Assembly: GCA_029721355.1 (NCBI GenBank)
Contig: CM056607.1
Coordinates: 8,339,309-8,403,308 of the forward strand
DNA from: Tegillarca granosa
Taxonomy: Eukaryota
DNA: 64,000 nucleotides
Reading direction: 5' to 3'
A program made the translations under genes and the position numbers. The notes beneath the pieces are model-generated. The model was not told where the DNA came from. It did not search any database and was given only the letters and a program-made list of their open reading frames with translations. Shown piece after piece: positions 5,952 through 62,346 of the stretch (its first letter is position 1; each line of letters begins with the position of its first letter).

Positions 5952-7422
5952 TATACTAGCGGAAAAAAGTAACTGTTCATCAATAAAATTTATAATTTCG
6001 CTATTATTACTGAATGTATAAATCTTAAAATTTGCACCAATGGTAAGTGTATATACCTCTATCATATCATCAATTGCCCGTGATTTTTACGCTTCATGTG
6101 CACGGGTCGGTTTTCACGCAATTGTCGCCCAGCATTTCAGTGTGACAATATTTTAGGAATAATTTACTGTTGTTTGTTTGTTTGGACACCAGAAAACCAG
6201 AAAAGCAAGTTTATTCGGTTGAAAGCTTCCATAGTCTAATGCCTAGGCTAAATGAAAATGATCGCCTCTGCACAATTGGTATGCTTGAGGCTGGTATGAC
6301 CCAAAGCTTTGTCACTAGACATTTTGGTGTCCACAGAAACACTGTTTATGCTTTATGGAGACGATACCAACAGTTTGGCACCACTAGAGACCGCCCTCGT
6401 TCAGGACGTCCACACGTAACGACACGTCAGCAAGACAACCATATCCGGCTTGTGCACCCCCGGAATCGTTTCCAAACTGCCAGTACTACTGCCTGGAGCA
6501 TTCCTGGACTACGCCCAATCAGCCCCAGAACAGTAAGGAATCATTTACGGGAAAGACATATTGGCCCACGACATCCGGCAATCCGTCCAATTCTACAACG
6601 ACGTGATCGCACAGCTCGCCTTGCATGGTGCAGAACACATTTACGCTTCAATCTACGAGATTGGACACAAATTATGTTCACCGATGAGTCTAGATTTCAC
6701 TTGGACAGCAGTGACGGACGCTCCAGAGTGTATCAGCCCATTGGAGAACGTTTTCATGACGCGTGTGTGGTGGAACGACGTTGGTTCGACGGGGGCAGTG
6801 TAATGGTTTGGGGTGGCATCACAGCGAATGACAGAACTCCTCTGGTAGTCATCGTCAGGAATTTTACCAGTGTACGGTACCCTGATGAAATCCTACATAC
6901 CCATGTCATCCGATTCATTCAAGGACAGCAACGTAATGTCACTTTTCAGCATGATAATGCAAGACCACTCGTCACACGAGTTGCAATGGATTTTCTGGCA
7001 CAGCATAACGTCAATGTGTTACCATGGCCAGCCGTTTCACCAGACTTTTCTCCAATTGAACACGTATGGGATGAAATGGAACGTCGATTACATCATCTGC
7101 CTAATCAGCCTGTTACATTGCAAGGGTTGGCCCAAGCGTTAGACCAGATATGGAACAACATCCCTCAAGCATTCTTTAGGCATTTAATCAACTCTATGAG
7201 GCATCTCTGTCTCATGATACTGATCTTGTGAACTGACTTTTACTATCTGCTATGTTTCTAGTCCCCTGGGTATGAAATAACAATATCTAACCTTTTCAAT
7301 GACATGAATTTGTAAAGAAATATCTAATAAACAAATACGAAATTATTCATTGCTTTGCATTTTCAAATTATTTTATAATCACACATTTCAGTCATGCACA
7401 GTTACTTTTTTCCGCTAGTATA
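5952..7422 (+). mobile_element. Tc1-family (DD34E) DNA transposon, apparently intact, in PARP4 intron 1 about 85 bp upstream of exon 2
   Basis: Perfect 25-bp terminal inverted repeats TATACTAGCGGAAAAAAGTAACTGT (5952-5976) and ACAGTTACTTTTTTCCGCTAGTATA (7398-7422). TA dinucleotides at both ends are consistent with a TA target-site duplication. A single uninterrupted transposase ORF lies inside. Confidence 0.85.
6239..7231 (+). CDS. Tc1-like transposase (paired-like HTH + DDE catalytic domain, DD34E)
   Basis: MPRLNENDRLCTIGMLEAGMTQSFVTRHFGVHRNTVYALWRRYQQFGTTRDRPRSGRPH.. Catalytic motifs FTDESRF, QHDNARPLV and SPDFSPIEHVWDEM with 34 residues between the second D and E. The ORF track begins 23 codons earlier at 6170 via a non-ATG start. 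Confidence 0.85.
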   Translation: MPRLNENDRLCTIGMLEAGMTQSFVTRHFGVHRNTVYALWRRYQQFGTTRDRPRSGRPHVTTRQQDNHIRLVHPRNRFQTASTTAWSIPGLRPISPRTVRNHLRERHIGPRHPAIRPILQRRDRTARLAWCRTHLRFNLRDWTQIMFTDESRFHLDSSDGRSRVYQPIGERFHDACVVERRWFDGGSVMVWGGITANDRTPLVVIVRNFTSVRYPDEILHTHVIRFIQGQQRNVTFQHDNARPLVTRVAMDFLAQHNVNVLPWPAVSPDFSPIEHVWDEMERRLHHLPNQPVTLQGLAQALDQIWNNIPQAFFRHLINSMRHLCLMILIL

Positions 7423-40275: not shown

Positions 40276-40452
40276 AACCAATAACACTGTGTGTAAAAAC
40301 ACTGTCTGGTAAAACTCTAGGTGTTGGTGCAATGAGGAACCAGACAATCCGAGATCTAAAGGACCTGATATTTGACAGGGAAGGGATACCCCCAGAAACC
40401 CAGAGACTTGTCATGGGGGGAAAACAAAGAACAGATGATGAATTAATCCAAG
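40276..40452 (+). CDS. PARP4: PARP4-like exon 30: N-terminal half of a ubiquitin-like domain
   Basis: tattacag|AA.. ..TCCAAG|gtacta. EPITLCVKTLSGKTLGVGAMRNQTIRDLKDLIFDREGIPPETQRLVMGGKQRTDDELIQ ~ ubiquitin [32 protein letters not shown]. Confidence 0.75.
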
Positions 40453-40599: not shown

Positions 40600-43500
40600 C
40601 AATTTTTATTTAGCCACCCCCTTATCACTACAAAATACACATATCATGTGAAATACAGTTACAGCTGCTCTACAGTTAAACATGTCTAAAAGCCATACCT
40701 GTTTTAGCCATCCCCTAATCACTAAAAGATACACATATTATATGAAATACAGTTACACCTGCTCTACAGTAAAACCTGTCTAAAAGCCATACCTGTTTTA
40801 GCCATCCCCTAATCACTATAAGATACACATATTATATGAAATACAGTTACACCTGCCCTACATTAAACCTGTCTAAAAGCCATACCTGTTTTAGCCATCC
40901 CCTAATCACTATAAGATACACATATTATATGAAATACAGTTACACCTGCTCTACAGTAAAACCTGTCTAAAAGCCATACCTGTTTTAGCCATCCCCTAAT
41001 CACTATAAGATACACATATTATATGAAATACAGTTACACCTGCCCTACATTAAACCTGTCTAAAAGCCATACCTGTTTTAGCTGTCCCCTAATCACTATA
41101 AGATACACATATTATATGAAATACAGTTACACCTGCCCTACAGTAAAACCTGTCTAAAAGCCATACCTGTTTTAGCTGTCCCCTAATCACTATAAGATAC
41201 ACATATTATATGAAATACAGTTACACCTGCTCTACAGTAAAACCTGTCTAAAAGCCATACCTGTTTTAGCTGTCCCCTAATCACTATAAGATACACATAT
41301 TATATGAAATACAGTTACACCTGCTCTACAGTAAAACCTGTCTAAAAGCCATACCTGTTTTAGCCATCCCCTAATCACTATAAGATACACATATTATATG
41401 AAATACAGTTACACCTGCTCTACAGTAAAACCTGTCTAAAAGCCATACCTGTTTTAGCTGTCCCCTAATCACTATAAGATACACATATTATATGAAATAC
41501 AGTTACACCTGCCCTACAGTAAAACCTGTCTAAAAGCCATACCTGTTTTAGCCATCCCCTAATCACTAAAAGATACACATATTATATGAAATACAGTTAC
41601 ACCTGCCCTACATTAAACCTGTCTTAAAGCCATACCTGTTTTAGCCATCCCCTAATCACTATAAGATACACATATTATATGAAATACAGTTACACCTGCC
41701 CTACATTAAACCTGTCTAAAAGCCATACCTGTTTTAGCTGTCCCCTAATCACTATAAGATACACATATTATATGAAATACAGTTACACCTGCCCTACAGT
41801 AAAACCTGTCTAAAAGCCATACCTGTTTTAGCCATCCCCTAATCACTAAAAGATACACATATTATATGAAATACAGTTACACCTGCCCTACATTAAACCT
41901 GTCTAAAAGCCATACCTGTTTTAGCTATCCCCTAATCACTAAAAGATACACATATTATATGAAATACAGTTACACCTGCTCTACAGTAAAACCTGTCTAA
42001 AAGCCATACCTGTTTTAGCCATCCCCTAATCACTATAAGATACACATATTATATGAAATACAGTTACACCTGCTCTACAGTAAAACCTGTCTAAAAGCCA
42101 TACCTGTTTTAGCCATCCCCTAATCACTAAAAGATACACATATTATATGAAATACAGTTACACCTGCTCTACAGTAAAACCTGTCTAAAAGCCATACCTG
42201 TTTTAGCCATCCCCTAATCACTAAAAGATACACATATTATATGAAATACAGTTACACCTGCTCTACAGTAAAACCTGTCAAAAAGCCATACCTGTTTTAG
42301 CCATCCCCTAATCACTAAAAGATACACATATTATATGAAATACAGTTACACCTGCTCTACAGTAAAACCTGTCTAAAAGCCATACCTGTTTTAGCCATCC
42401 CCTAATCACTATAAGATACACATATTATATGAAATACAGTTACACCTGCTCTACAGTAAAACCTGTCTAAAAGCCATACCTGTTTTAGCTGTCCCCTAAT
42501 CACTATAAGATACACATATTATATGAAATACAGTTACACCTGCTCTACAGTTAAACATGTCTAAAAGCCATACCTGTTTTAGCTGTCCCCTAATCACTAA
42601 AAGATACACATATTATATGAAATACAGTTACACCTGCTCTACAGTAAAACCTGTCTAAAAGCCATACCTGTTTTAGCCATCCCCTAATCACTATAAGATA
42701 CACATATTATATGAAATACAGTTACACCTGCTCTACAGTAAAACCTGTCTAAAAGCCATACCTGTTTTAGCTGTCCCCTAATTACTAAAAGATACACATA
42801 TTATATGAAATACAGTTACACCTGCTCTACAGTAAAACCTGTCTAAAAGCCATACCTGTTTTAGCTGTCCCCTAATCACTAAAAGATACACATATTATAT
42901 GAAATACAGTTACACCTGCTGTACAGTAAAACCTGTCTAAAAGTCATACCTGTTTTAGCTGTCCCCTAATCACTAAAAGATACACATATTATATGAAATA
43001 CAGTTACACCTGCTCTACAGTAAAACCTGTCTAAAAGCCATACCTGTTTTAGCTGTCCCCTAATCACTATAAGATACACATATTATATGAAATACAGTTA
43101 CACCTGCCCTACATGAAACCTGTCTAAAAGCCATACCTGTTTTAGCCATCCCCTAATCACTATAAGATACACATATTATATGAAATACAGTTACACCTGC
43201 CCTACATTAAACCTGTCTAAAAGCCATACCTGTTTTAGCTGTCCCCTAATCACTATAAGATACACATATTATATGAAATACAGTTACACCTGCTCTACAG
43301 TAAAACCTGTCTAAAAGCCATACCTGTTTTAGCTGTCCCCTAATCACTATAAGATACACATATTATATGAAATACAGTTACACCTGCCCTACATTAAACC
43401 TGTCTAAAAGCCATACCTGTTTTAGCCATCCCCTAATCACTATAAGATACACATATTATATGAAATACAGTTACACCTGCCCTACATTAAACCTGTCTAA

Positions 43501-43975
43501 AAGCCATACCTGTTTTAGCCATCCCCTAATCACTATAAGATACACATATTATATGAAATACAGTTACACCTGCCCTACATTAAACCTGTCTAAAAGCCAT
43601 ACCTGTTTTAGCTGTCCCCTAATCACTAAAAGATACACATATTATATGAAATACAGTTACACCTGCTCTACAGTAAAACCTGTCTAAAAGCCATACCTGT
43701 TTTAGCTGTCCCCTAATCACTAAAAGATACACATATTATATGAAATACAGTTACACCTGCTCTACAGTAAAACCTGTCTAAAAGCCATACCTGTTTTAGC
43801 TGTCCCCTAATCACTAAAAGATACACATATTATATGAAATACAGTTACACCTGCTCTACAGTAAAACCTGTCTAAAAGCCATACCTGTTTTAGCTGTCCC
43901 CTAATCACTATAAGATACACATATTATATGAAATACAGTTACACCTGCCCTGTAAAACCTGTCATACAGTTGAAA
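40600..43975 (+). repeat. 93/94-bp satellite x ~36 in PARP4 intron 30 (CCATACCTGTTTTAGCYRTCCCCTAATCACTAWAAGATACACATATTATATGAAATACAGTTACACCTGCYCTACAKTAAAACCTGTCTAAAAG)
   Basis: Direct reading. Two unit subtypes (acagtaaaacc / acattaaacc) alternate. ORF 43367..43687 is a translation of it. Confidence 0.95.
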
Positions 43976-44925: not shown

Positions 44926-45318
44926 ACATCATTGTTATTGCTAGGTTTCAATGTTAGTTTTTTCAACTAAACCAAAGGCTCAGATAATTTATTGTGATGG
45001 TTTACTATCTGCAATGTTATTTATTTTATGCTATAGTTATTTATTGATGTACAAGAGATCTAGGCAATGTATTAGTATGCTGTACTTCTGATTTATCCTT
45101 TTTTTTTTTTTTTTTTTGTTACTATAGTGTTCTTCTAATCCTTATATAGAAAATCATGTTTAAAGTTACATAAAAAAAAATTAATAAATAATAAAAATAA
45201 AACAATAAAAGAAATTTGTTCAAGAAGCAAAAAGCCTAATTAAATGACCTTAAGATACAGATATTGGTTAGTTTTGACTAGTAAAACTAATTTTTATTAT
45301 CTCCTATATATGTTTCAG

Positions 45319-45750
45319 ACTTAGAAGAAGAGGACAATTTAACCAATGATGATTTTAATGCAGAGTTAAGATGGTCCGAAGCAGATCAAATTCATTGTCT
45401 TCTCTTGCTTGATGTTACACCATTATCGTTGGGTATCGAAACAGCGGGTGGCCTTATGGATGTAATAATAAAACGAAACTGTACCATACCAACCAGAAAA
45501 TCTAAAAAATATTCCACATATTGTGATTATCAGACAAAAATAGTGATAAAAATATTTGAAGGTGAACGAGCATTAACCAAAGACAATAACTATTTAGGAG
45601 AATTTGAAATCCATAATATAATGCCTGCTCCCTATGGTGAGCCCCAGATTGAAGTCACTATGGATATTGATGCAAATGGTATTCTTACTGTGTCAGCAGT
45701 CGATAAATCTACAGGAAATGGCAACAAATTGTGTATTACTAATGACAAAG
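45319..45750 (+). CDS. HSP70-family fragment, exon A: substrate-binding domain (SBD-beta); no nucleotide-binding domain found nearby
   Basis: tgtttcag|AC.. ..GACAAAG|gtaaaa. (D)[143 protein letters not shown] ~ HSPA8 [118 protein letters not shown]. Confidence 0.75.
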
Positions 45751-46133
45751 GTAAAATAAAATCTTCACTCATCAAAACTGTGTCGATTTCTGATGTATCT
45801 AATTTTATCTAATTGCCAAAAGTAGTCTAAAATTTTTTTTTTTTAAATTTCACTAGAGTTAATTAGTTCAGCTTTCCCTTTTTCAAAAGCATTTTTAAAC
45901 AGAGATTGTTTGCTATTGTTTCAACATGTTTGAAAACTCTTAAAAATGTTTCTTTTAAACTACTAATATTTATAAAGTACTGTGAATGTCATGTGAGATG
46001 GCATGCAGAGGAATACATGTTTAATTAACATTAAAGCAAAGATTTTTCTTCTGAAAACTTTTAAACTTTTCTGAACTTTGTAGCTGATGCATAATTAGTT
46101 AATTTTTTTCCAAATTCATAAGTTCTGGCATTT

Positions 46134-46208: not shown

Positions 46209-46233
46209 GACTACTTACACTTTCTGTTTTAAG

Positions 46234-46601
46234 GTCGCCTTACCAAAGATGAGATTGAGAAAATGATTAATGATTCTGAGAAATTTTGCAAGAAAGATAA
46301 AATTTGGCAACATTGTATCAGAGAGAGACTTATATCTGCAAACAGGAAGTACACAAAAGAATCATATTTTACAGAACAAACAATGATAAATGATATAGAC
46401 ATTTTTGACACTGATGATAAAGTCGCCAAATGGTTGGAGTCAGAAAAAACAAATTTATTTACCTCTGTGGAGCCAGTATTAGATCAACATAGTGATGGTC
46501 AAAAATGCAAAACTTTATCTGACCTTTCTTTGGACAGGTCAAATGAAAAATCACTGTCTAAAGGATACAAAAATGAAACAAAGATTGAGGAAGTTGACTA
46601 A
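46234..46601 (+). CDS. HSP70-family fragment, exon B: helical lid and C-terminal tail ending in EEVD, stop TAA
   Basis: gttttaag|GT.. A phase-1 acceptor matches the exon A donor. GRLTKDEIEKMINDSEKFCKKDKIWQHCIRERLISANRKYTKESYFTEQ..KGYKNETKIEEVD* ~ HSPA8 [48 protein letters not shown]. Confidence 0.7.
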
Positions 46602-51992: not shown

Positions 51993-52054
51993 ATTTACCA
52001 GAAGATGCCACTGTTTATTTAGTGTTACGTTTACGAGGAGGACCTGGTCCCTCA
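51993..52054 (+). CDS. PARP4: PARP4-like exon 31: C-terminal half of the ubiquitin-like domain (LVLRLRGG)
   Basis: tactttgtag|AT.. ..CCCTCA|gtaagt. A phase-1 acceptor matches the phase-1 donor at 40452. DLPEDATVYLVLRLRGGPGPS ~ ubiquitin ..STLHLVLRLRGG. Confidence 0.75.
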
Positions 52055-52792: not shown

Positions 52793-55218
52793 GACAATTT
52801 GAGTATCAGATCAGATATGTCCAGTGAGTTACCAGATCAAGTTCCTGTCCAAAAGGCTAACTTAATTGGTAAAAAAATAATTGCTACAAAAGGTGCAAGA
52901 AAATCTAGTTTTGAAGAAAGTGTCCCCACCTCAAAAGATCAAGTTGTTGACCAAGATGATGTTGATATTCCTAGTGACAGTTTAGATGAAAGTGATTACT
53001 CAGAGGAAGCTGAGTGTCCCATACAACAACCTATTCCTAAAAAAGAACTCCCTAAATATGCTGCCAGAAAGTCTGCACCAATAGCCAATATTATTACTGT
53101 TGACTATTCAGATGAGGCCGAGGATGATGAAGGTGAGAGCATTATGGGAACAGAAGATTCTCCGCCAGCTTCAGAAGACTTTTCTTATGCTTTCCAGTAT
53201 GCAGATAGAAAGGATAGCTTGCTGGATGAAGGTTCTTTTTCACCAGGGTTACAAAGTTATGACAAAAAAATCGATGCAATTGACATTGAAAAAGGGAGTT
53301 TGAAAACAGGTTCAGCCAATAAGAAGGCAAAAAAATCCAAAATGTCTGATATAAATGTTTCAGCTGATATGTCACCAACAAATGGTCCTTTTGAGGATAG
53401 TTCACTACCATCACATTTATTTGGTCTTGGATCATCTTCACTGTTGGAAACAACAAATGCATTGGATATTGAGGGTGAAATAGATTTGTCAGACTTCCTG
53501 AATGGAACTGTTGCTACACCATTGTTCCAAAGTCAAGATAGTACTACTTTTAATGATGCTCTCATGAATGAATCAGAACCCCCTGCAGATGTTCCAACAC
53601 AATCATTTCAAGCATTTGAGCTAGCATCACCTATGTACCAGCAAGTATCACCATGTTATAACCCCACATCTCCATCCTATAGTCCCACATCTCCATCTTA
53701 CAGCCCCACATCACCAGCATATAACCCTGCAACTCCAGCATACAGTCTAACATCTCCAGCATACAAACCCTCTTCATCGTCCTTTGACAAGACAGGTCAT
53801 AGTGACATGCATACTCTTACAGTTCAGTCTGCTGGATTTGAACCAGAAAAAGATGAAAGACATGTATCTGATATGTATTTTGCTCCAGACTTTGATCCTG
53901 TTTTGTTACCAGCAAAGTTACCATCAAAACCAAGCAAGCATACTGCCTTTGGTTTGAGTGGATATGGGTCACTGGACCAGTCAGGGTTTGATTCTAGTGA
54001 ACTGAGTCGTCTTCATTTCCCTGGTTTCAGTTCTGAAGGATATAGCTCCCAGAGCCAGTCAAGATTTGATTCCAGTGGAACAAAAAAACCACATGCATTT
54101 GGTTTTGGGGGAAATCTTGAACTTCAAAATCAAATCCAACAATGTATACAACCACCACCACCACCACCAGTCAGAAAGAGAACAATAAGACAGACATTTA
54201 TTGATAAAGAATTGATGCAAGAAGTGGATCCTCATACTGAAGAAAATATTAACCACACATTTCAACCTCAGGTACAGCCTTCTTTACAAGACATACCTTT
54301 GCCACCAGAATCACCTCTGTGGAAATCATCAGATGAATCATACTTACATGCTCTTGACAAAAATTCAGCACATTATGATCCAAAAACCAGATTGATGATT
54401 ACTGCTGAGAGTAGATTAGTGGATACAGACAGTAGGGTCAAAGGTTTTCAGGACAGAGATCTTTCCCATAAATTTGTAATAAACAAGAGAGGTAGAGGAA
54501 GGGGAGGTAAAGTAATCAGAATGTCAGTATCAAGTGAGCAAAATGTACAAGAAAAAAGGAAGAGAGAGGGCAAACATAGGAGCCCTGATTCAGAAAGTAG
54601 ATCAAGAAATAGAAATGTGAGGCAATGGCAAGGTAGTAGAAGCTGGTCTATAAGTAGGTCTAGAAGCAGAAGTCATGGACATAGGGTAGAAAGAAGAAGG
54701 TCAAGAAGCAGAAGTCGTGAACCTAGGGTAGACAGGAGAAGTAGGTCAAGAAGCAGAAGTCATGAACCTAGGGTAGACAGGAGAAGTAGGTCTAGAAGCA
54801 GAAGTGATGGACATAGTGTAGACATGAGAACTAGGTCAAGAAGCAGAAGTCCAGAGCACAGGGATAGATGGTCAAGAAGACGGTCTAGTAGCAGAAGTCA
54901 TGAACATAGTGTAGACATGAGAACTGGGTCAAGAAGTGGAGGTTTTGGTTACCAAAGTGACAGAGGAATAGGGTTTAGAAATAGATCAAGAAGCAGAAGT
55001 TATGATCACTCTGCCACTAAAAAGAGGGGAAAAAGTAGGTCTAGAGAAAGGGGACAAAAAGATGAAGGAACCAGAAAATCAAGGAGTAGAGACAAGGATA
55101 GACAAAGACATAAAGATAGACAGTTAGCTGTTAGTCCAGAGAGACATGTTTCTTTTCTAGATGCTGCTACATCAAGAGAAAGCATGGGCAGAGATGCTAG
55201 GAAAGATGAAAATAAACA
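52793..55218 (+). CDS. PARP4: PARP4-like exon 32: 2.4-kb exon encoding an acidic/S-P-rich low-complexity region, 6 RNA-Pol-II-CTD-like YSPTSPS heptads, a PPPPPP tract and an Arg/Ser (RS) domain
   Basis: cattaacag|GAC.. Open for 808 codons. The TAA at 55220 overlaps a consensus donor ca|GTAAGT at 55219, which must be used to reach the conserved C-terminal exons. Contains [41 protein letters not shown] and [36 protein letters not shown]. Confidence 0.75.
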
Positions 55219-56287
55219 GTAAGTATTTTATATGATTTATCTTTAAAATATTTGTAAAATCATTTGTTAAGGTTACAAGCCAAAAAATGGTTTTATCTCC
55301 AATCATTACCAAAATATATTAATATAATGAAAATACAAGAGCCCCAATTTGATTTAAGTCTTTAGAAAGGATCCTGCTTATTGAGGCTTTTGGGGGCCCA
55401 TCTTCCAGATAACTTTTTTATCTTAAAATATTTATGGATAATTATACCAGCACTACCATATGCAATATCACACACCCTAAATATGACATGGGTCTTTACA
55501 TAATTGATTTTTTGCATTGTACATCAGCAGACCAACTTGATGATTCAGCTGTTGATGTACAGGGCTAATATCACCATATACCTTAATCATTTGCTAGAAA
55601 ATTCTGTTACTGCCTGATCCCTTGTTGAGATTAATTCTATTTCTGCCCTTAACTAAACTTCCTGATTTTCAATCACTACGTGATTGTCTATTACTTTGAA
55701 CATCTCAGACAATTACTTAAATCAGTTTTGACAATAGAATAGGAGTTGTATTCTTGTCTGTGACATATTTGCTTGGCAAGCTAGCCACTCAACAAAGAGT
55801 CAACCTGAGTGTATGCTTGTATAAAGCAGACAATAACACACACCTGCACATACATGTAATCCTTAGGATTAATAAAACTTGCTCTTTTCACAAATAGCTG
55901 AAAAATTGCTGAGGTTTAACAATGTAAAAGTCAATCCATGTTCCAAGGGTGTGACATGACCTTGAATCATGTCATGTGTAAGGTCAAGGTCATGGAGTGC
56001 CTGTCTGCAGGGGTATTAGAAAGTACTGGGGGTATTACTGGAGAAAATTCTAATTAATCTTGGTAAGAAAACATCATCATTAATATCTTTTAAAATTCAA
56101 TTTTCCTTAAATATTTTTTACCACAAAATGTTTTGACTTGTATTTTTAGATTGCTATTTTTTTACAACTAGAGCAATGAAATTGGCATTGTATTTATATC
56201 AAAAGATTTTCATGCCAGTGTAGACTATGTATTGAGTCTATTGACAGTCAGTACTCTTTTTTATTGAATTTACTTATGTAATTCCAG

Positions 56288-56372
56288 ATACATTGAGAAC
56301 AGTTTATGGAAGAACATAAAAATTGGCAATGAGGACAAAAACTTTAATCAGAAATTACCTGCTTTAACAGAG
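56288..56372 (+). CDS. PARP4: PARP4-like exon 33 (candidate)
   Basis: taattccag|A.. ..ACAGAG|gtatgt. Phase 2->0 links exon 32 to exon 34. QYIENSLWKNIKIGNEDKNFNQKLPALTE; similarity is weak. Confidence 0.5.
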
Positions 56373-56849: not shown

Positions 56850-56949
56850 AACAAATATTGGGAATTGACCCCCGACCTTTGTAAGGTTTTAGGTGTGTCA
56901 TGTGATTCGATAAAGAAAATTTTACGACAACAAGGATTATACTCTTTAG
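56850..56949 (+). CDS. PARP4: PARP4-like exon 34 (MVP-binding-like C-terminal region)
   Basis: catttttcag|AAC.. ..CTTTAG|gtaagt. NKYWELTPDLCKVLGVSCDSIKKILRQQGLYSL ~ human DGFWKLTPELGLILNLNTNGLHSFLKQKGIQSLG. Confidence 0.8.
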
Positions 56950-58262: not shown

Positions 58263-58582
58263 CTGCCTCAGTGTCATTAATGGGAGAGAGACTTCTCGCC
58301 ACACTACTGGTTATAATACACCGAATAAAACAACATAAACATTTTCAAGAATGGATAAAAGATGGAAACTTATATGAAATATATGTTGAAATAGACAAAA
58401 ATGTTCTTAGATTTGATAGAGGAAAACATGGATCAATTTCACTGATTTTAGAAAAAAGCATGGAACAACCTTTAATCTGGTTAAAGGAGACTCATAAAAA
58501 AATTCCAAGTTTGTGTGTTGACCTTGAACTTGGAAAGAGTATAAAAGATTTTCTGTGGAAATTATATTTGTCTGTTTCATGA
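58263..58582 (+). CDS. PARP4: PARP4-like terminal coding exon 35 (stop TGA 58580-58582)
   Basis: tgttttag|CT.. AASVSLMGERLLATLLVIIHRIKQHKHFQEWIKDGNLYEIYVEIDKNVLRFDRGKHGSISLILEKSMEQPLIWLKETHKK..LSVS* ~ human VKGRECLLDLIATMLVLQFIRTRLEKEGIVFKSLMK. Confidence 0.8.
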
Positions 58583-60029
58583 TACAGTGCAATCTTTATA
58601 TTATAAAACCAACTTTAAATAGCATATTATTAACTTTCACATACTTTTGAGAGATTTCATTTATGAAAGCATTTGATCATAGAATTTATTATTGCATATA
58701 TCTTTATATATCTATATATATATATATATTTATTCTGTTTTTGAAGATATATATATATATATTGTTTTTGCAGATTTGCTTGTGAAAGTTTTGTAGTCGA
58801 GATGTATTTTTATTAAGATACCTCAAGAGGCAATAGCTACTATGAAAGTTGGTTTATTTATACATGTATATGTAAATTAACAAATCCAAAGTAAACCAGA
58901 AGATTCCCATAATTGAACAATTTTTGGAAAACATGCCATTAAAATTATTAAATTTATAAATTATGTAAACTAAAAACTTGCCTAATCAGTCCAGCAAATG
59001 TTATGCTTTACATGTAATTAGGTACATTGTACTTTATACATTTATTTGTTTTATGAATGAGATTATTGTCACTAAAAACGAAATTAAATGTAAATATAAT
59101 GCAGTAGTGATTTATTTTGTGTATGTTGTTGCATTAAGGCTGTGATGATTGTTGAAGAGTATACATGTAAGGGACTATATTTGGCCTAAATTTCAAACGA
59201 AATGCATTTTGATACAGTTATTACAAAAACCATATATGACATAGACTTGACATGAACACAAATTTCTCTTGTAAATACATGATATCGTTGATGTTTTAGT
59301 ACTGATTTTAAGAGATTTTCCAGGAAAATTTGGAAGCGAGTCTTTTGCAAGCTTCTTGTCATTGAGCTTTTCTCGTACAATCCAAGGAAAAACTTTTTCC
59401 TTTCAAATGTAGAATTCGATCCCAATGGGCTGGGTGTGATGTTGAATCTTCCAGTGTTGATCAGACAATAGCTTGCTATATTAAGCATGCATTCAATATT
59501 TCAAGAAATATTTATCATAAAATTTCTTTCAATTGGCCATGTACTCTCAGAGAATTACTTCTCTACGGCATTTTGGACAGACACGTCAGAAATAATTTTC
59601 AATCTACAACTAAGGACTTTCCATATCAAATTTAATTTGATTCTGGCAATTAGTTTCAGAGGAGGAGGTTAAAGTTTACAGTTGCACTTACACTTTATTA
59701 TGCCTTAAGCTCACCCTGGTTTTGCTAGGTGAGCTAAAAACTACCTGCTTATATGGCTGTATGGGTATCTATAAACAATGAAATACATTTACCATTTCAT
59801 AAGATATGAAACATGAAATGCACAAGCAAGAATATTTTACTTGTACCCATCAATCTTAAATGGTGAGGGTTGAAAACTGGTCAAGCAGCTTAATAAATTC
59901 ATCAAAACAGCAACCCTTACCAAGATGACAAGAAAGGAGCAATAGAGTTTAATCTACCAGTCACAATCTTTCACTTAAAATCAAGTCAAGTTAGGGGTGG
60001 TGGAGAAAACCTGTGCCCAGAGAGAGAGA

Positions 60030-61734: not shown

Positions 61735-62198
61735 TCAGTGTGTGTGCATGCATGCGCAAGTGTGTCAACCTGACAACATTTGAAAGTAGCTTTAAGATAA
61801 AGATTTGTGTTACAAACACAATTTCTTTTATTTTGACATTTCCAATAAGTTGTTTAAAGTATAAGCCCTTGTACCATTAAAAGAATGATTCTTATTTTGA
61901 ACACCATGTTTTAACAGCTTATTTTATTGCAGGCTTTACTTATCTAATGTAAATACAGCTGTTATGTGATGAATTAAAAATTATAAATTTATATTGGTGG
62001 TAATTCATAAATAAATTCAAACCCATGCCAGGCTGCATGAAACAGACTAAGCAAGATGGGTCCATCTGTAAAATGGGAGATACCAAAACATGCTACAAAT
62101 GAAGAAAAGTAAACAGTTAATAGGGGTAATTTTTCTGCTGCTTCAATATGATGGAAAATGGGATAGGTACAGTTTAAATGTGTTGGACAGTTACTTAC

Positions 62199-62346
62199 CG
62201 GCCAATTGTAATAAAGATGAGTCAGCTTGTAAGTCAATCTCTGCATATGATCTGGTTTTAATCCAGTTGTATCCCACACAACATTGTAGTGAGTTGGTGT
62301 AACTGTACCCTGTCTAACTGATTGAGACACCAAGAAGAAATCATAC
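62199..62346 (-). CDS. Piwi-like gene, penultimate exon (PIWI domain)
   Basis: Minus strand: ttttag|GTATGATTTC.. ..TGGCCG|gtaagt. [49 protein letters not shown] ~ human [51 protein letters not shown]. Confidence 0.85.

What the first reader, a model, noticed from the sequence alone, without database searches (positions are those of the whole stretch)
52793..55218. PARP4 giant exon encodes RNA-Pol-II-CTD-like YSPTSPS heptads plus an RS domain
The 808-codon exon contains [41 protein letters not shown] (six heptads matching the Pol II CTD consensus YSPTSPS), a P6 tract, and ~200 aa of RS/RSRSRS repeats typical of SR splicing factors (..[36 protein letters not shown]..). Human PARP4 only has a vaguer S/P-rich linker here. 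CTD-mimic and RS modules are substrates or docking sites for CTD kinases and phosphatases and for SR-protein kinases, implying nuclear or speckle functions for this vault PARP. The exon's TAA stop overlaps a consensus donor (CA|GTAAGT at 55219), which must be used to reach the conserved MVP-binding-like exons, so the same site could yield a short or a long isoform.
Basis: partly seen in the sequence, partly recalled or inferred. Interest (0 to 1): 0.6.

Follow-up and report, generated by a model that had tools for sequence, protein, structure and literature searches.

The report
Clam PARP4 linker exon mimicking nuclear tails
A single 2.4-kb exon of the blood clam's vault-type PARP4 gene encodes a long floppy linker that carries copies of the RNA polymerase II tail repeat, an SR-splicing-factor-like RS domain and histone-H3-tail-like motifs. 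The same layout is kept in scallop and mussels, which hints that this poorly understood enzyme is tied to nuclear RNA processing.

Summary
Window 52793-55218 (+) is one open 808-codon internal exon with five good and one degenerate YSPTSPS-type heptads, a P6 tract, an RGG box and an RS domain of about 185 aa.

New here:
- The exon also holds two histone-H3(16-30)-like ARKS motifs.
- The series UBL, H3-like, acidic, heptads, RGG, RS, MVP-ID recurs in an unidentified relative, Pecten and Mytilus.
- The heptads are the most constrained segment (dN/dS about 0.27, against 0.59 overall).

The in-frame stop inside the donor follows from any phase-2 GTRAGT donor. No evidence supports a short isoform. 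The junction to the upstream UBL exon rests on gene models and reading phase, not on transcripts.

A docking or modification platform for nuclear and speckle factors is plausible but untested. I file it as a new variant of a known kind, with moderate to high interest.

The parts
40276..40452 (+). Ubiquitin-like (UBL) domain, first exon of the PARP4 orthologue. It ends after 1 nt of a codon.
   Evidence: Pfam PF00240 E 1.8e-10 on model residues 1291-1360. tblastn gives 100% identity. Splice sites read.
51993..52054 (+). UBL second exon (..DLPEDATVYLVLRLRGGPGPS). It ends in phase 0 at S|GTAAGT, which is phase-compatible with 52793.
   Evidence: Joined to the giant exon in GenBank model P0132. 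No transcript evidence found for 52054^52793.
52793..55218 (+). Giant internal coding exon (808 codons + 2 nt) encoding a disordered linker between the UBL and the MVP-interaction domain.
   Evidence: All segments fall on the disordered side of the charge-hydropathy boundary. Homologous exon with the same boundaries in L002.
52868..52909 (+). Histone H3(17-29)-like motif 1: [14 protein letters not shown].
   Evidence: blastp against H3: 61.5% identity over 13 residues, E 0.5-0.7, weak on its own. 11 of 13 residues are conserved in L002 (GKKLIATKAARKS). The homologous motifs in Pecten and Mytilus are more H3-like.
53036..53092 (+). Histone H3(16-30)-like motif 2: [19 protein letters not shown], containing the AARKSAP core of the H3K27 region.
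   Evidence: 66.7% identity over 15 residues, E 0.03-0.04. Conserved as KYGARKSAPVAE in L002 and RYGPRKSAPIVED in Mytilus.
53099..53137 (+). Acidic Ser/Asp/Glu tract ([13 protein letters not shown]), conserved in L002.
53657..53782 (+). Pol II CTD-like heptad array: 5 good heptads and 1 degenerate one.
   Evidence: dN/dS 0.27 against L002. About 11 heptads in L002, about 10 in Pecten, and 2 + 2.5 in Mytilus.
53876..53917 (+). Conserved short linear motif [14 protein letters not shown].
   Evidence: Identical core in L002 and in Mytilus (KYYAPDFDP).
54152..54169 (+). P6 tract (P8 in the L001 allele).
54485..54511 (+). RGG box KRGRGRGGK.
   Evidence: Conserved in L002. Expanded RGG repeats in Mytilus and Pecten. 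Similarity to the H4 N-terminus is weak (E 0.8) and is not claimed.
54572..55123 (+). RS (Arg/Ser dipeptide) domain.
   Evidence: RS domains stand in the same position in L002, Mytilus (P0137/P0143) and Pecten (P0138).
54652..54936 (+). 45-nt (15-aa) tandem array of 6.3 copies that builds the core of the RS domain. A 132-nt in-frame length difference separates it from L001.
55219..55224 (+). Donor GTAAGT. The in-frame TAA (55220-55222) would be read only if the intron were retained.
   Evidence: Donor use is shown by L001. L002 has GTGAGT with TGA at the same place.
56288..56372 (+). Coding exon (..Q YIENSLWKNIKIGNEDKNFNQKLPALTE), the start of the MVP-ID region.
   Evidence: L001 matches at 100%. 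Splice sites read.
56850..56949 (+). Coding exon (NKYWELTPDLCKVLGVSCDSIKKILRQQGLYSL), the conserved core of the MVP-ID.
58263..58582 (+). Terminal coding exon of the transcript form (..CVDLELGKSIKDFLWKLYLSVS*), stop at 58580-58582. The 3' UTR reaches at least 58732.
   Evidence: The GenBank model instead splices from about 58543 to 59062-59142.

Best explanation
**Shown.** Window 52793-55218 is an internal coding exon of the Tegillarca granosa PARP4 orthologue (KUTeg_009755). It encodes an intrinsically disordered linker of about 808 aa between a ubiquitin-like domain and the C-terminal MVP-interaction domain.

The linker is a string of short modules that copy well-known modification and docking hubs of nuclear proteins:
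- two histone-H3(16-30)-like ARKS motifs;
- an acidic tract;
- five to six Pol II CTD-type heptads;
- a conserved YFAPDFDP motif and an FG/SQ-rich stretch;
- a P6 tract;
- an RGG box;
- an RS domain of about 185 aa, built partly from a 15-aa tandem repeat.

The exon is spliced at 55218 to three downstream exons that encode the MVP-ID. The module set is conserved in at least three other pteriomorph bivalves.

**Inferred mechanism.** The linker acts as a multivalent docking and modification platform.
- The RS and RGG parts would be phosphorylated and methylated like those of SR-related proteins, and would bind RS-domain proteins or RNA. This would direct a non-vault fraction of the enzyme to nuclear speckles and splicing machinery.
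- The Ser-Pro heptads and ARKS motifs would add CTD-type and H3-tail-type contacts for kinases, prolyl isomerase and readers.
- Together they would bring the ADP-ribosyltransferase next to RNA-processing and chromatin factors.

This would be a built-in version of the link that human PARP4 makes through the same VWA-to-MVP-ID linker with hnRNPM.
For: **Identity**
- P0132 (KAJ8312382.1, T. granosa) contains the exon at 100% identity and maps to 29 window segments.
- Its Pfam domains are BRCT, PARP, VIT, VWA and ubiquitin.

**Splicing**
- L001 joins the exon to the three downstream exons.
- The phase fits the UBL exon.

**MVP-ID**
- phmmer to human PARP4 residues 1576-1695 gives E 1.6e-5.

**Modules**.

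**Conservation**
- L002 has the same exon boundaries, both ARKS motifs, about 11 heptads, an RGG box and an RS domain.
- Pecten maximus L003 has a giant ORF with H3-like and H4-like motifs, about 10 heptads, RGG repeats and RS, followed by MVP-ID exons.
- Mytilus P0143 and P0137 run from the UBL end through H3-like segments (E down to 2e-11), heptads, RGG and RS to the MVP-ID.

**Constraint**
- dN/dS is 0.27 for the heptads, 0.46 for RGG+RS and 0.59 overall.
- All three allelic indels against L001 are in frame (+6, +6, -132 nt).

**Human parallel**
- A nuclear PARP4 fraction exists. The hnRNPM interaction maps to the intervening sequences, including 1055-1569. PARP4 loss perturbs splicing (PMC11265163).
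- The human linker is disordered and positively selected in primates (PMC10450202).
Against: - There is no experimental or localisation evidence for any module.
- Much of the linker evolves almost neutrally: middle part dN/dS 0.79, N-terminal part 0.66.
- Heptad number and module order vary between species. For example, YFAPDFDP lies after the heptads in the clam and before them in Mytilus.
- Two of the five good heptads have Asn instead of Ser2.
- The H3-like motifs of T. granosa are statistically weak on their own (E 0.03-0.7).
- The join to the upstream PARP4/UBL exons is not shown by transcripts. RefSeq splits the orthologous loci of Pecten and Mytilus into two genes.
- The human MVP-contact residues K1618 and R1689 correspond to S and D in the clam. 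MVP residues that bind PARP4 are reported as conserved only in vertebrates (PMC12280208). Vault anchoring is therefore unproven.
Confidence: 0.55

Rival explanations
1. The exon is a passive spacer. It is only a flexible tether between the enzyme and its anchor domain. The heptads, RS repeats, P6 tract and histone-like bits are by-products of replication slippage and of captured, decaying gene fragments in a permissive disordered linker, with no CTD-, SR- or histone-type function.
For: - dN/dS is 0.59 overall and 0.79 in the middle part.
- Repeat number is unstable: 5-6 heptads here against about 11 in L002, and a 132-nt RS-array length difference between alleles.
- Lineage-specific insertions occur in the same linker: Q-rich tracts in Mytilus and Pecten, and a clathrin-propeller-like segment in Mytilus.
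- Annotated vertebrate isoforms skip the linker altogether.
Against: - The same set of modules persists in Arcida, Pectinida and Mytilida.
- The heptads and the [12 protein letters not shown] and RGG islands are far better conserved than their surroundings.
- Synonymous differences between heptad units, with the amino acids kept, argue for maintenance at the protein level.
Confidence: 0.25
2. The giant exon and the MVP-ID exons form, entirely or additionally, a separate transcription unit with an internal promoter. Its product would be a stand-alone heptad/RS/MVP-ID protein not attached to the PARP catalytic part.
For: - RefSeq annotates two adjacent same-strand genes in Pecten (a 2351-aa product plus a 536-aa 'SRSF4-like' protein) and in Mytilus galloprovincialis (a 1998-aa PARP-VIT-VWA-UBL product plus 1391-aa LOC143077023).
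- The only T. granosa transcript contig, L001, starts inside the exon. Its first 212 nt do not match the window.
Against: - The Pecten split falls exactly at a frameshift inside the RGG repeats, where two overlapping reading frames of one giant ORF meet. It looks like an assembly or annotation artefact.
- In T. granosa and in L002 the ORF opens exactly at a conserved acceptor, in phase with the UBL exon. The first Met is not conserved in position.
- The M. edulis and T. granosa models, and M. coruscus P0121, join the PARP4/UBL sequence to the homologous linker.
- The L001 break at 53092 has no AG acceptor. It may be a chimera, an insertion allele or the flank of a retrocopy.
Confidence: 0.12
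3. Retention of the intron after 55218, or polyadenylation just downstream, yields a substantial short isoform that ends ...DENKQ* and lacks the MVP-ID.
For: - An in-frame TAA lies at 55220-55222, and an AATAAA hexamer at 55211-55216.
- L002 is an unspliced contig of the homologous exon. Whether it is RNA or genomic DNA is unknown.
Against: - A stop directly after a phase-2 GTRAGT donor is automatic.
- The AATAAA is made of the codons AAT AAA and is not conserved in L002 (GAA TAT AAG).
- The only transcript evidence is spliced.
Confidence: 0.07

Closest known systems
Vertebrate PARP4 / vault PARP (human Q9UKK3; PDB 9bw6)
   Same: - Same domain order: BRCT, PARP catalytic, VIT, VWA, a long disordered linker, then the C-terminal MVP-interaction (MINT) domain.
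- The H-Y-E catalytic residues can be read in the clam sequence: LMHSS, GIYFS, LEYVIY (direct reading against PARP1 motifs recalled from memory).
- The human linker is also disordered. It is implicated in hnRNPM binding and in nuclear, splicing-related roles.
   Different: - The clam protein has a UBL domain, H3-like motifs, CTD heptads, an RGG box and an RS domain in the linker.
- None of the PARP4 entries retrieved from vertebrates or non-mollusc invertebrates shows a tandem heptad array, an RS-rich window or a UBL. Those entries are all about 1455 aa or less and mostly lack the linker.
- The human MVP-contact residues K1618 and R1689 are S and D here.
RS-domain enzymes and SR-related proteins (CDK12/13, CLK kinases, PPIG/SR-cyclophilin, SRRM1/2, SCAF4/8). 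Comparison made from general knowledge.
   Same: An enzyme or scaffold without the classical SR-protein layout carries a long RS domain. In those proteins the RS domain targets them to speckles and to the spliceosome/Pol II interface. Here the best 50-aa window has 58% of its residues in RS/SR dipeptides.
   Different: There is no RRM, no kinase or cyclophilin domain and no CTD-interaction domain. The catalytic module is an ADP-ribosyltransferase. The RS domain sits next to CTD-like heptads rather than next to a CTD-binding domain.
RNA polymerase II RPB1 C-terminal domain
   Same: Tandem Y-S/N-P-T/A-S/T-P-S/A heptads. The Pfam PF05001 score is above the gathering threshold.
   Different: - Only 5-6 repeats, against 26-52 in RPB1 (copy numbers from general knowledge).
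- No RPB1 core domains.
- Ser2 is Asn in two repeats.
- Other non-RPB1 carriers exist in bivalves, for example Mytilus LOC143080694, which has a MATH domain and a long run of CTD-type heptads (PF05001 E 1.8e-12).
Histone-tail mimics (ARKS-type: G9a/EHMT2 automethylation site, influenza NS1, SARS-CoV-2 ORF8, NOP16)
   Same: Short A-R-K-S cores sit in H3K27-like context ([17 protein letters not shown]) inside a non-histone protein.
   Different: - The motifs are endogenous, present in two copies, and flanked by a UBL and CTD-like repeats.
- In Mytilus the similarity runs into the structured H3 34-58 segment (88% identity, E 2e-11). This suggests descent from a captured H3 gene fragment rather than convergence.
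- No methylation or reader binding has been shown.

Membership tests
PARP4 (vault PARP) orthologue | N-terminal BRCT, then a PARP catalytic domain, then VIT and VWA (the ITIH-like region) | tested here: met
   Pfam on P0132: BRCT 8.6e-10, PARP 1.9e-24, VIT 9.9e-38, VWA_3 6.7e-24. All map to window exons at 95-100% identity. The best homologues are annotated PARP4 or PARP4-like proteins from molluscs, a hemichordate, amphioxus, echinoderms and vertebrates.
PARP4 (vault PARP) orthologue | C-terminal MVP-interaction (MINT/MVP-ID) domain | tested here: met
   - phmmer to human PARP4 1576-1695, E 1.6e-5.
- The precomputed annotation lists PF26156 for P0001.
- Foldseek against the PDB did not list it among its 50 best matches, and the local Pfam copy gave no hit.
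PARP4 (vault PARP) orthologue | Binding to the major vault protein and residence in vaults | not testable with these tools
   Human contact residue S1614 is conserved, but K1618 is S, R1689 is D and Q1682 is K in the clam. PMC12280208 reports that MVP residues for PARP4 binding are conserved only in vertebrates.
Classical SR splicing factors (SRSF family) | One or two N-terminal RRMs | tested here: not met
   No RRM in the Pfam scans of the exon or of the whole model. The RefSeq name 'SRSF4-like' given to the Pecten fragment rests on the RS composition only.
Classical SR splicing factors (SRSF family) | RS domain of at least 50 aa with more than 40% RS content and consecutive RS/SR dipeptides (definition recalled from memory) | tested here: met
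   In the best 50-aa window, 58% of residues lie in RS/SR dipeptides; in the best 100-aa window, 49%. There are 55 RS/SR dipeptides in the last 233 aa.
Pol II CTD-type heptad array | Tandem in-register heptads matching YSPTSPS | tested here: met
   PF05001 scores 21.2 bits against a 20.3 cut-off. There are 5 in-register heptads and 1 degenerate one. No shuffle exceeded 3 matches to YxPxxPx, against 4 observed.
Pol II CTD-type heptad array | Phosphorylation by CTD kinases and binding by CTD readers | not testable with these tools
   Only sequence features are available. Ser5-Pro6 (or Thr-Pro) is present in all 5 good heptads. Ser2 is present in 3 of the 5.
Histone H3 tail mimic | H3-like sequence around an A-R-K-S core | tested here: inconclusive
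   - T. granosa: 66.7% over 15 residues (E about 0.03) and 61.5% over 13 residues (E about 0.5).
- Both motifs are conserved in L002.
- The orthologous linkers are clearly H3-like in Mytilus (E 2e-11 to 5e-6), Pecten (E 0.002, plus an H4-like KSGKGLGKGGAKR, E 2e-4) and Littorina (E 1.4e-4).
Ubiquitin-like domain | Ubiquitin fold and sequence with a C-terminal LRLRGG | tested here: met
   PF00240 E 1.8e-10. The sequence ...LVLRLRGGPGPS is read. A UBL at this position also occurs in PARP4-like proteins of Littorina, Bulinus, Batillaria and Mytilus.

The most novel reading that the evidence does not exclude
Mollusc PARP4 carries a conserved array of decoy tails: ubiquitin-like, histone H3 (and H4)-like, Pol II CTD-like, RGG and RS. 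These would work together as bait or as cis-substrates.

One version is that the array captures nuclear writers and readers, or viral factors that target these hubs. Examples would be polymerases that dock on phospho-CTD, or histone-tail-binding effectors. Captured factors would then be ADP-ribosylated or sequestered in vaults. This would fit the host-virus conflict signature seen in the primate PARP4 linker.

The other version is that the KS-containing H3-like motifs are built-in serine-ADP-ribosylation sites that regulate the enzyme.

On either version, the modules would descend from captured fragments of highly expressed genes (ubiquitin, H3, possibly RPB1).
Probability: 0.12. Interest if true: 0.85.

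Novelty: new variant of a known kind. Interest (0 to 1): 0.6.

Why it matters
The functions of PARP4 and the vault particle have been unclear for decades. Recent human work points to a vault-independent nuclear role in splicing, mediated by the poorly characterised linker between the VWA domain and the MVP-ID.

In bivalves that same linker has explicit, conserved modules with well-understood biochemistry: an RS domain, an RGG box, CTD heptads and H3-like ARKS motifs. This gives concrete, testable handles on which pathways PARP4 touches, such as kinase assays, reader pull-downs and localisation.

It also documents a rare case of Pol II CTD-type and histone-tail-type sequences embedded in an enzyme. 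Finally, it flags annotation errors: the orthologous locus is split in Pecten and Mytilus RefSeq, and one fragment is named 'SRSF4-like'.

Tried and rejected
- **Homologue searches.** All three homologous-protein searches returned only entries of about 1455 aa or less. Full-length PARP4s, including human, were not retrievable.
- **Exact look-up of P0132.** No gene with this product is on record.
- **Transcript evidence for 52054^52793.** The search with UBL plus the exon start found no T. granosa fragment spanning it.
- **L001 nt 1-212.** They match nothing in the window and remain unexplained.
- **SRA accessions.** Not found in the literature, so it is unknown whether L001 and L002 come from RNA or DNA. 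A spliced contig still implies a spliced mRNA, even if it is a retrocopy.
- **H2A and H2B tail similarity.** Compositional only (K/R/S-rich); rejected.
- **H4-like reading of the clam RGG box.** E 0.8; not claimed.
- **Pfam PF05001 on the Pecten giant ORF.** No hit despite three perfect heptads. I did not establish why.
- **Opposite strand of the exon.** Only two short ORFs (106 and 68 aa) with no support.
- **Short-isoform idea.** Rejected as unsupported.
Full report
**1. The observation**

Window 52793-55218 (+) is open for 808 codons plus two bases.
- It begins right after a polypyrimidine/AG acceptor (ttcattaacag|GAC), with an in-frame TAA three codons' worth upstream.
- It ends at CA|GTAAGT.

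The heptad block is at exon aa 289-330 (nt 53657-53782). It reads [35 protein letters not shown] and YKPSSSS, which is five good heptads and one degenerate one.
- Pfam's Rpb1 C-terminal repeat model scores 21.2 bits against a gathering score of 20.3, E 3.2e-4.
- TRF sees a 21-nt period of about 5 copies.
- The strict pattern YxPxxPx occurs 4 times; no residue shuffle out of 20,000 gave more than 3.
- The units differ at synonymous positions, so they are not a recent slippage product.

Other features:
- The P6 tract is at 54152-54169.
- The RS region has R 26% and S 21% over 233 aa, with 55 RS/SR dipeptides.
- Its best 50-aa window has 58% of residues in RS/SR dipeptides.
- Its core is a 45-nt tandem array of 6.3 copies, encoding RSRSRS-x-E/G-H/P-R/S-V-D-R/M-R units.

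**2. Which gene, which organism**

A protein search with the exon found P0001, an 819-aa ORF on a 2874-nt Logan contig, at 87% identity. Its 90% cluster contains KAJ8312382.1, "hypothetical protein KUTeg_009755 [Tegillarca granosa]", 2383 aa. That model matches 29 window segments at 95-100% identity, from about 7507 to 59142. The giant exon is residues 1367-2174.

Pfam finds BRCT, PARP_reg (below its cut-off), PARP, VIT, VWA and a ubiquitin domain at residues 1291-1360. The window is therefore the blood-clam PARP4 orthologue. The exon is already part of a deposited but uncharacterised gene model.

**3. Splicing**

Contig L001 is 99.4% identical to the window over the exon. It is spliced relative to the window:
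- 55218^56288, where CA + A gives Gln, followed by YIEN...;
- 56372^56850;
- 56949^58263;
- stop at 58580-58582, with UTR to at least 58732.

All junctions are GT-AG.

The GenBank model differs only at the very end. It splices from about 58543 to 59062-59142.

The stop in the donor has no special meaning. An exon that ends after two bases of a codon and is followed by GTAAGT or GTGAGT always reads G-TAA or G-TGA. The related exon L002 has TGA at the same place. The only poly(A) hexamer nearby (55211) is the codon pair AAT AAA. It is not conserved in L002.

Upstream, the UBL is split over 40276-40452 and 51993-52054. The phases fit: G|AT gives Asp, and the second UBL exon ends in phase 0 before the phase-0 giant exon. 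I found no transcript that spans 52054^52793.

L001 itself starts inside the exon. Its first 212 nt match nothing in the window and join at 53092 without an AG. This could be a chimera, an insertion allele or the flank of a 5'-truncated retrocopy. It is unexplained.

**4. The C-terminal domain**

The 167 aa encoded by the three downstream exons hit human PARP4 residues 1576-1695 in the PDB sequence set, E 1.6e-5.

The domain is therefore a true MVP-ID/MINT homologue. However:
- of the human contact residues, only S1614 is conserved;
- K1618 is S, R1689 is D and Q1682 is K in the clam (PMC12280208);
- that paper states that the MVP residues binding PARP4 are conserved only in vertebrates.

Vault anchoring in the clam is plausible but not shown.

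**5. What else is in the exon**

Aligning the exon with its homologue in L002 (38% identity, unidentified species) shows conserved islands in a divergent background:
- GKK-IATK-ARKS
- QPIP-K-L-KY-ARKSAP
- VDYSD..DDEGE-IMG
- [20 protein letters not shown]
- the heptads
- YFAPDFDP
- [12 protein letters not shown]
- KHRSPDS
- several RS blocks

The first two islands resemble histone H3 residues 16-30, the K27 region (AARKSAP):
- 66.7% identity over 15 residues (E about 0.03);
- 61.5% over 13 residues (E about 0.5).

These are weak on their own. The orthologous linkers are unmistakably histone-like:
- M. edulis P0143 has four H3-like segments, including [23 protein letters not shown] (H3 34-58, 88% identity, E 2e-11).
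- Pecten has PRKQIATKAARRSS (E 0.002) and an H4-like KSGKGLGKGGAKR (E 2e-4).
- The Littorina PARP4-like protein ends, after its UBL, with RTNQTARMSTGGKAPARMQ (E 1.4e-4).

**6. Conservation of the architecture**

- *Pecten maximus (L003).* UBL exons are followed by a giant ORF with a Q-rich part, H3-like and H4-like motifs, an acidic tract, about 10 heptads, FG-like repeats, RGG repeats and RS, and then by MVP-ID exons. RefSeq splits this into a 2351-aa product and a 536-aa "SRSF4-like" protein. The split falls exactly where two overlapping frames meet inside the RGG repeats, which is a frameshift and probably an assembly or annotation artefact.
- *Mytilus galloprovincialis (L004).* A 1998-aa PARP-VIT-VWA-UBL product is followed about 1.6 kb downstream, on the same strand, by LOC143077023. 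That gene carries H3-like, heptad, RGG, RS and clathrin-propeller-like segments and an MVP-ID.
- *M. edulis and M. coruscus.* The M. edulis model runs from the UBL end to the MVP-ID in one protein. M. coruscus P0121 joins the post-VWA region, the UBL and the start of the linker.
- *Gastropods.* A UBL at this position also occurs in Littorina, Bulinus and Batillaria PARP4-like proteins.

No tandem heptad array, RS-rich window or UBL was seen in the retrieved PARP4 entries from vertebrates or non-mollusc invertebrates. Those entries are all about 1455 aa or less, and the vertebrate ones are isoforms that lack the linker. So the human comparison was not possible.

**7. Constraint**

Nei-Gojobori estimates against L002:

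| Segment | dN/dS |
|---|---|
| All | 0.59 |
| N-terminal part | 0.66 |
| Heptads | 0.27 |
| Middle | 0.79 |
| RGG+RS | 0.46 |

Alignment in low-complexity sequence is uncertain, and the heptad sample is small (45 codons).

L001 differs from the window by 13 substitutions and three indels (+6, +6, -132 nt). All three indels are in frame. The 132-nt one removes about three RS repeat units. This could be an allele or a collapsed assembly.

Charge-hydropathy places every segment on the disordered side.

**8. Interpretation**

*Shown:* a conserved, disordered, modular linker exon of a PARP4 orthologue, spliced to the MVP-ID.

*Inferred:* the modules act as a docking and modification platform.
- RS and RGG parts would behave as in SR-related proteins: SRPK/CLK phosphorylation, RS-RS and RNA contacts, and speckle targeting.
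- Ser-Pro heptads would be CTD-type sites.
- ARKS motifs would be H3-tail-type sites.

Enzymes that carry RS domains for speckle targeting are known (CDK12/13, CLKs, PPIG; from general knowledge).

Human PARP4 has a nuclear fraction. It binds hnRNPM through regions that include the 1055-1569 linker, and it affects splicing (PMC11265163). The human linker is disordered and positively selected in primates (PMC10450202).

The main rival is a passive spacer that accumulates repeats and captured gene fragments. This locus does hold such material:
- a clathrin-like segment in Mytilus;
- an HSP70 fragment in the clam's UBL intron.

Conservation of the module set across three bivalve orders, and the lower dN/dS of the heptads, speak against a purely neutral reading. 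They do not prove CTD-like or SR-like function.

**9. Verdict**

- The finding is real, and the gene assignment is correct.
- The splice prediction is confirmed.
- The isoform speculation is unsupported.
- The functional claim is plausible but untested.

It is a new variant of a known kind, a PARP4 with an SR-like, CTD-like and histone-like linker. The underlying gene model is already public but undescribed.

Noticed in passing
window 52868-52909 and 53036-53092: There are two histone-H3(16-30)-like ARKS motifs in the N-terminal part of the giant exon, conserved in L002. The orthologous linkers of Mytilus, Pecten and Littorina carry clearer H3 tail copies, and Pecten also has an H4 tail copy.
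   Followed up: partly
window 40276-40452 and 51993-52054: A ubiquitin-like domain ending in LRLRGG is inserted in PARP4 just before the giant exon and is split by an 11.5-kb intron. The same UBL occurs in gastropod and mussel PARP4-like proteins. None of the non-mollusc PARP4 entries retrieved (all about 1455 aa or less) has an LRLRGG-type motif.
   Followed up: partly
window 45291-45809 and 46233-46598 (+): An HSP70 substrate-binding-domain fragment (PF00012 positions 381-504, E 2e-42) and a lid-like ORF ending in KIEEVD lie on the same strand inside the UBL intron. No ATPase domain was noticed nearby. It could be a pseudogene, a captured fragment or an unannotated alternative exon.
   Followed up: partly
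window 40609-43963: A 94-bp satellite of 35.8 copies at 96% identity fills part of the UBL intron.
   Followed up: partly
L001 1-212 (joins window at 53092): The first 212 nt of the spliced T. granosa contig match nothing in the window and join mid-exon without a splice acceptor. This could be a chimera, an insertion allele or the flank of a 5'-truncated retrocopy.
   Followed up: partly
window 53493, 54150, 54686-54817: There are in-frame length differences between the window and L001: +6 nt (a Gly-Phe that L002 also has), +6 nt (P6 becomes P8), and -132 nt (about three RS repeat units).
   Followed up: yes
window 58543-59142: The GenBank model splices out of the last exon at about 58543 to 59062-59142. 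This gives a different C-terminal tail from transcript L001, which reads through to the stop at 58582 and keeps the conserved LELGKSIKDFL end of the domain.
   Followed up: partly
L003 9353-9981 (Pecten maximus LR736845.1): Two overlapping reading frames meet inside the RGG repeats of the orthologous giant exon. RefSeq therefore splits the locus into a 2351-aa protein and a 536-aa 'serine/arginine-rich splicing factor 4-like' protein that is really RS domain plus MVP-ID.
   Followed up: partly
L004 24077-27531; P0143 residues about 1490-1800: Mytilus has a clathrin-heavy-chain propeller-like segment (PF01394, E 7.6e-8) between the RS domain and the MVP-ID. The clam lacks it.
   Followed up: no
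window 58263-58582 (MVP-ID): The human PARP4 residues that contact MVP are not conserved: K1618 is S and R1689 is D in the clam. In Mytilus, Pecten and Haliotis an Arg sits one position earlier.
   Followed up: partly
window 6170-7231 (+): A Tc1/mariner-type transposase ORF (DDE_3 and HTH_Tnp_Tc3_2) lies in an early PARP4 intron.
   Followed up: partly
window 61989-62333 (-): A Piwi-domain exon (PF02171, E 3.4e-14) on the opposite strand belongs to the next gene downstream of PARP4.
   Followed up: partly
P0102 (Mytilus galloprovincialis LOC143080694): Another bivalve non-RPB1 protein combines a MATH domain with a long run of CTD-type heptads (PF05001 E 1.8e-12). CTD-like arrays have therefore been co-opted more than once in bivalves.
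   Followed up: partly
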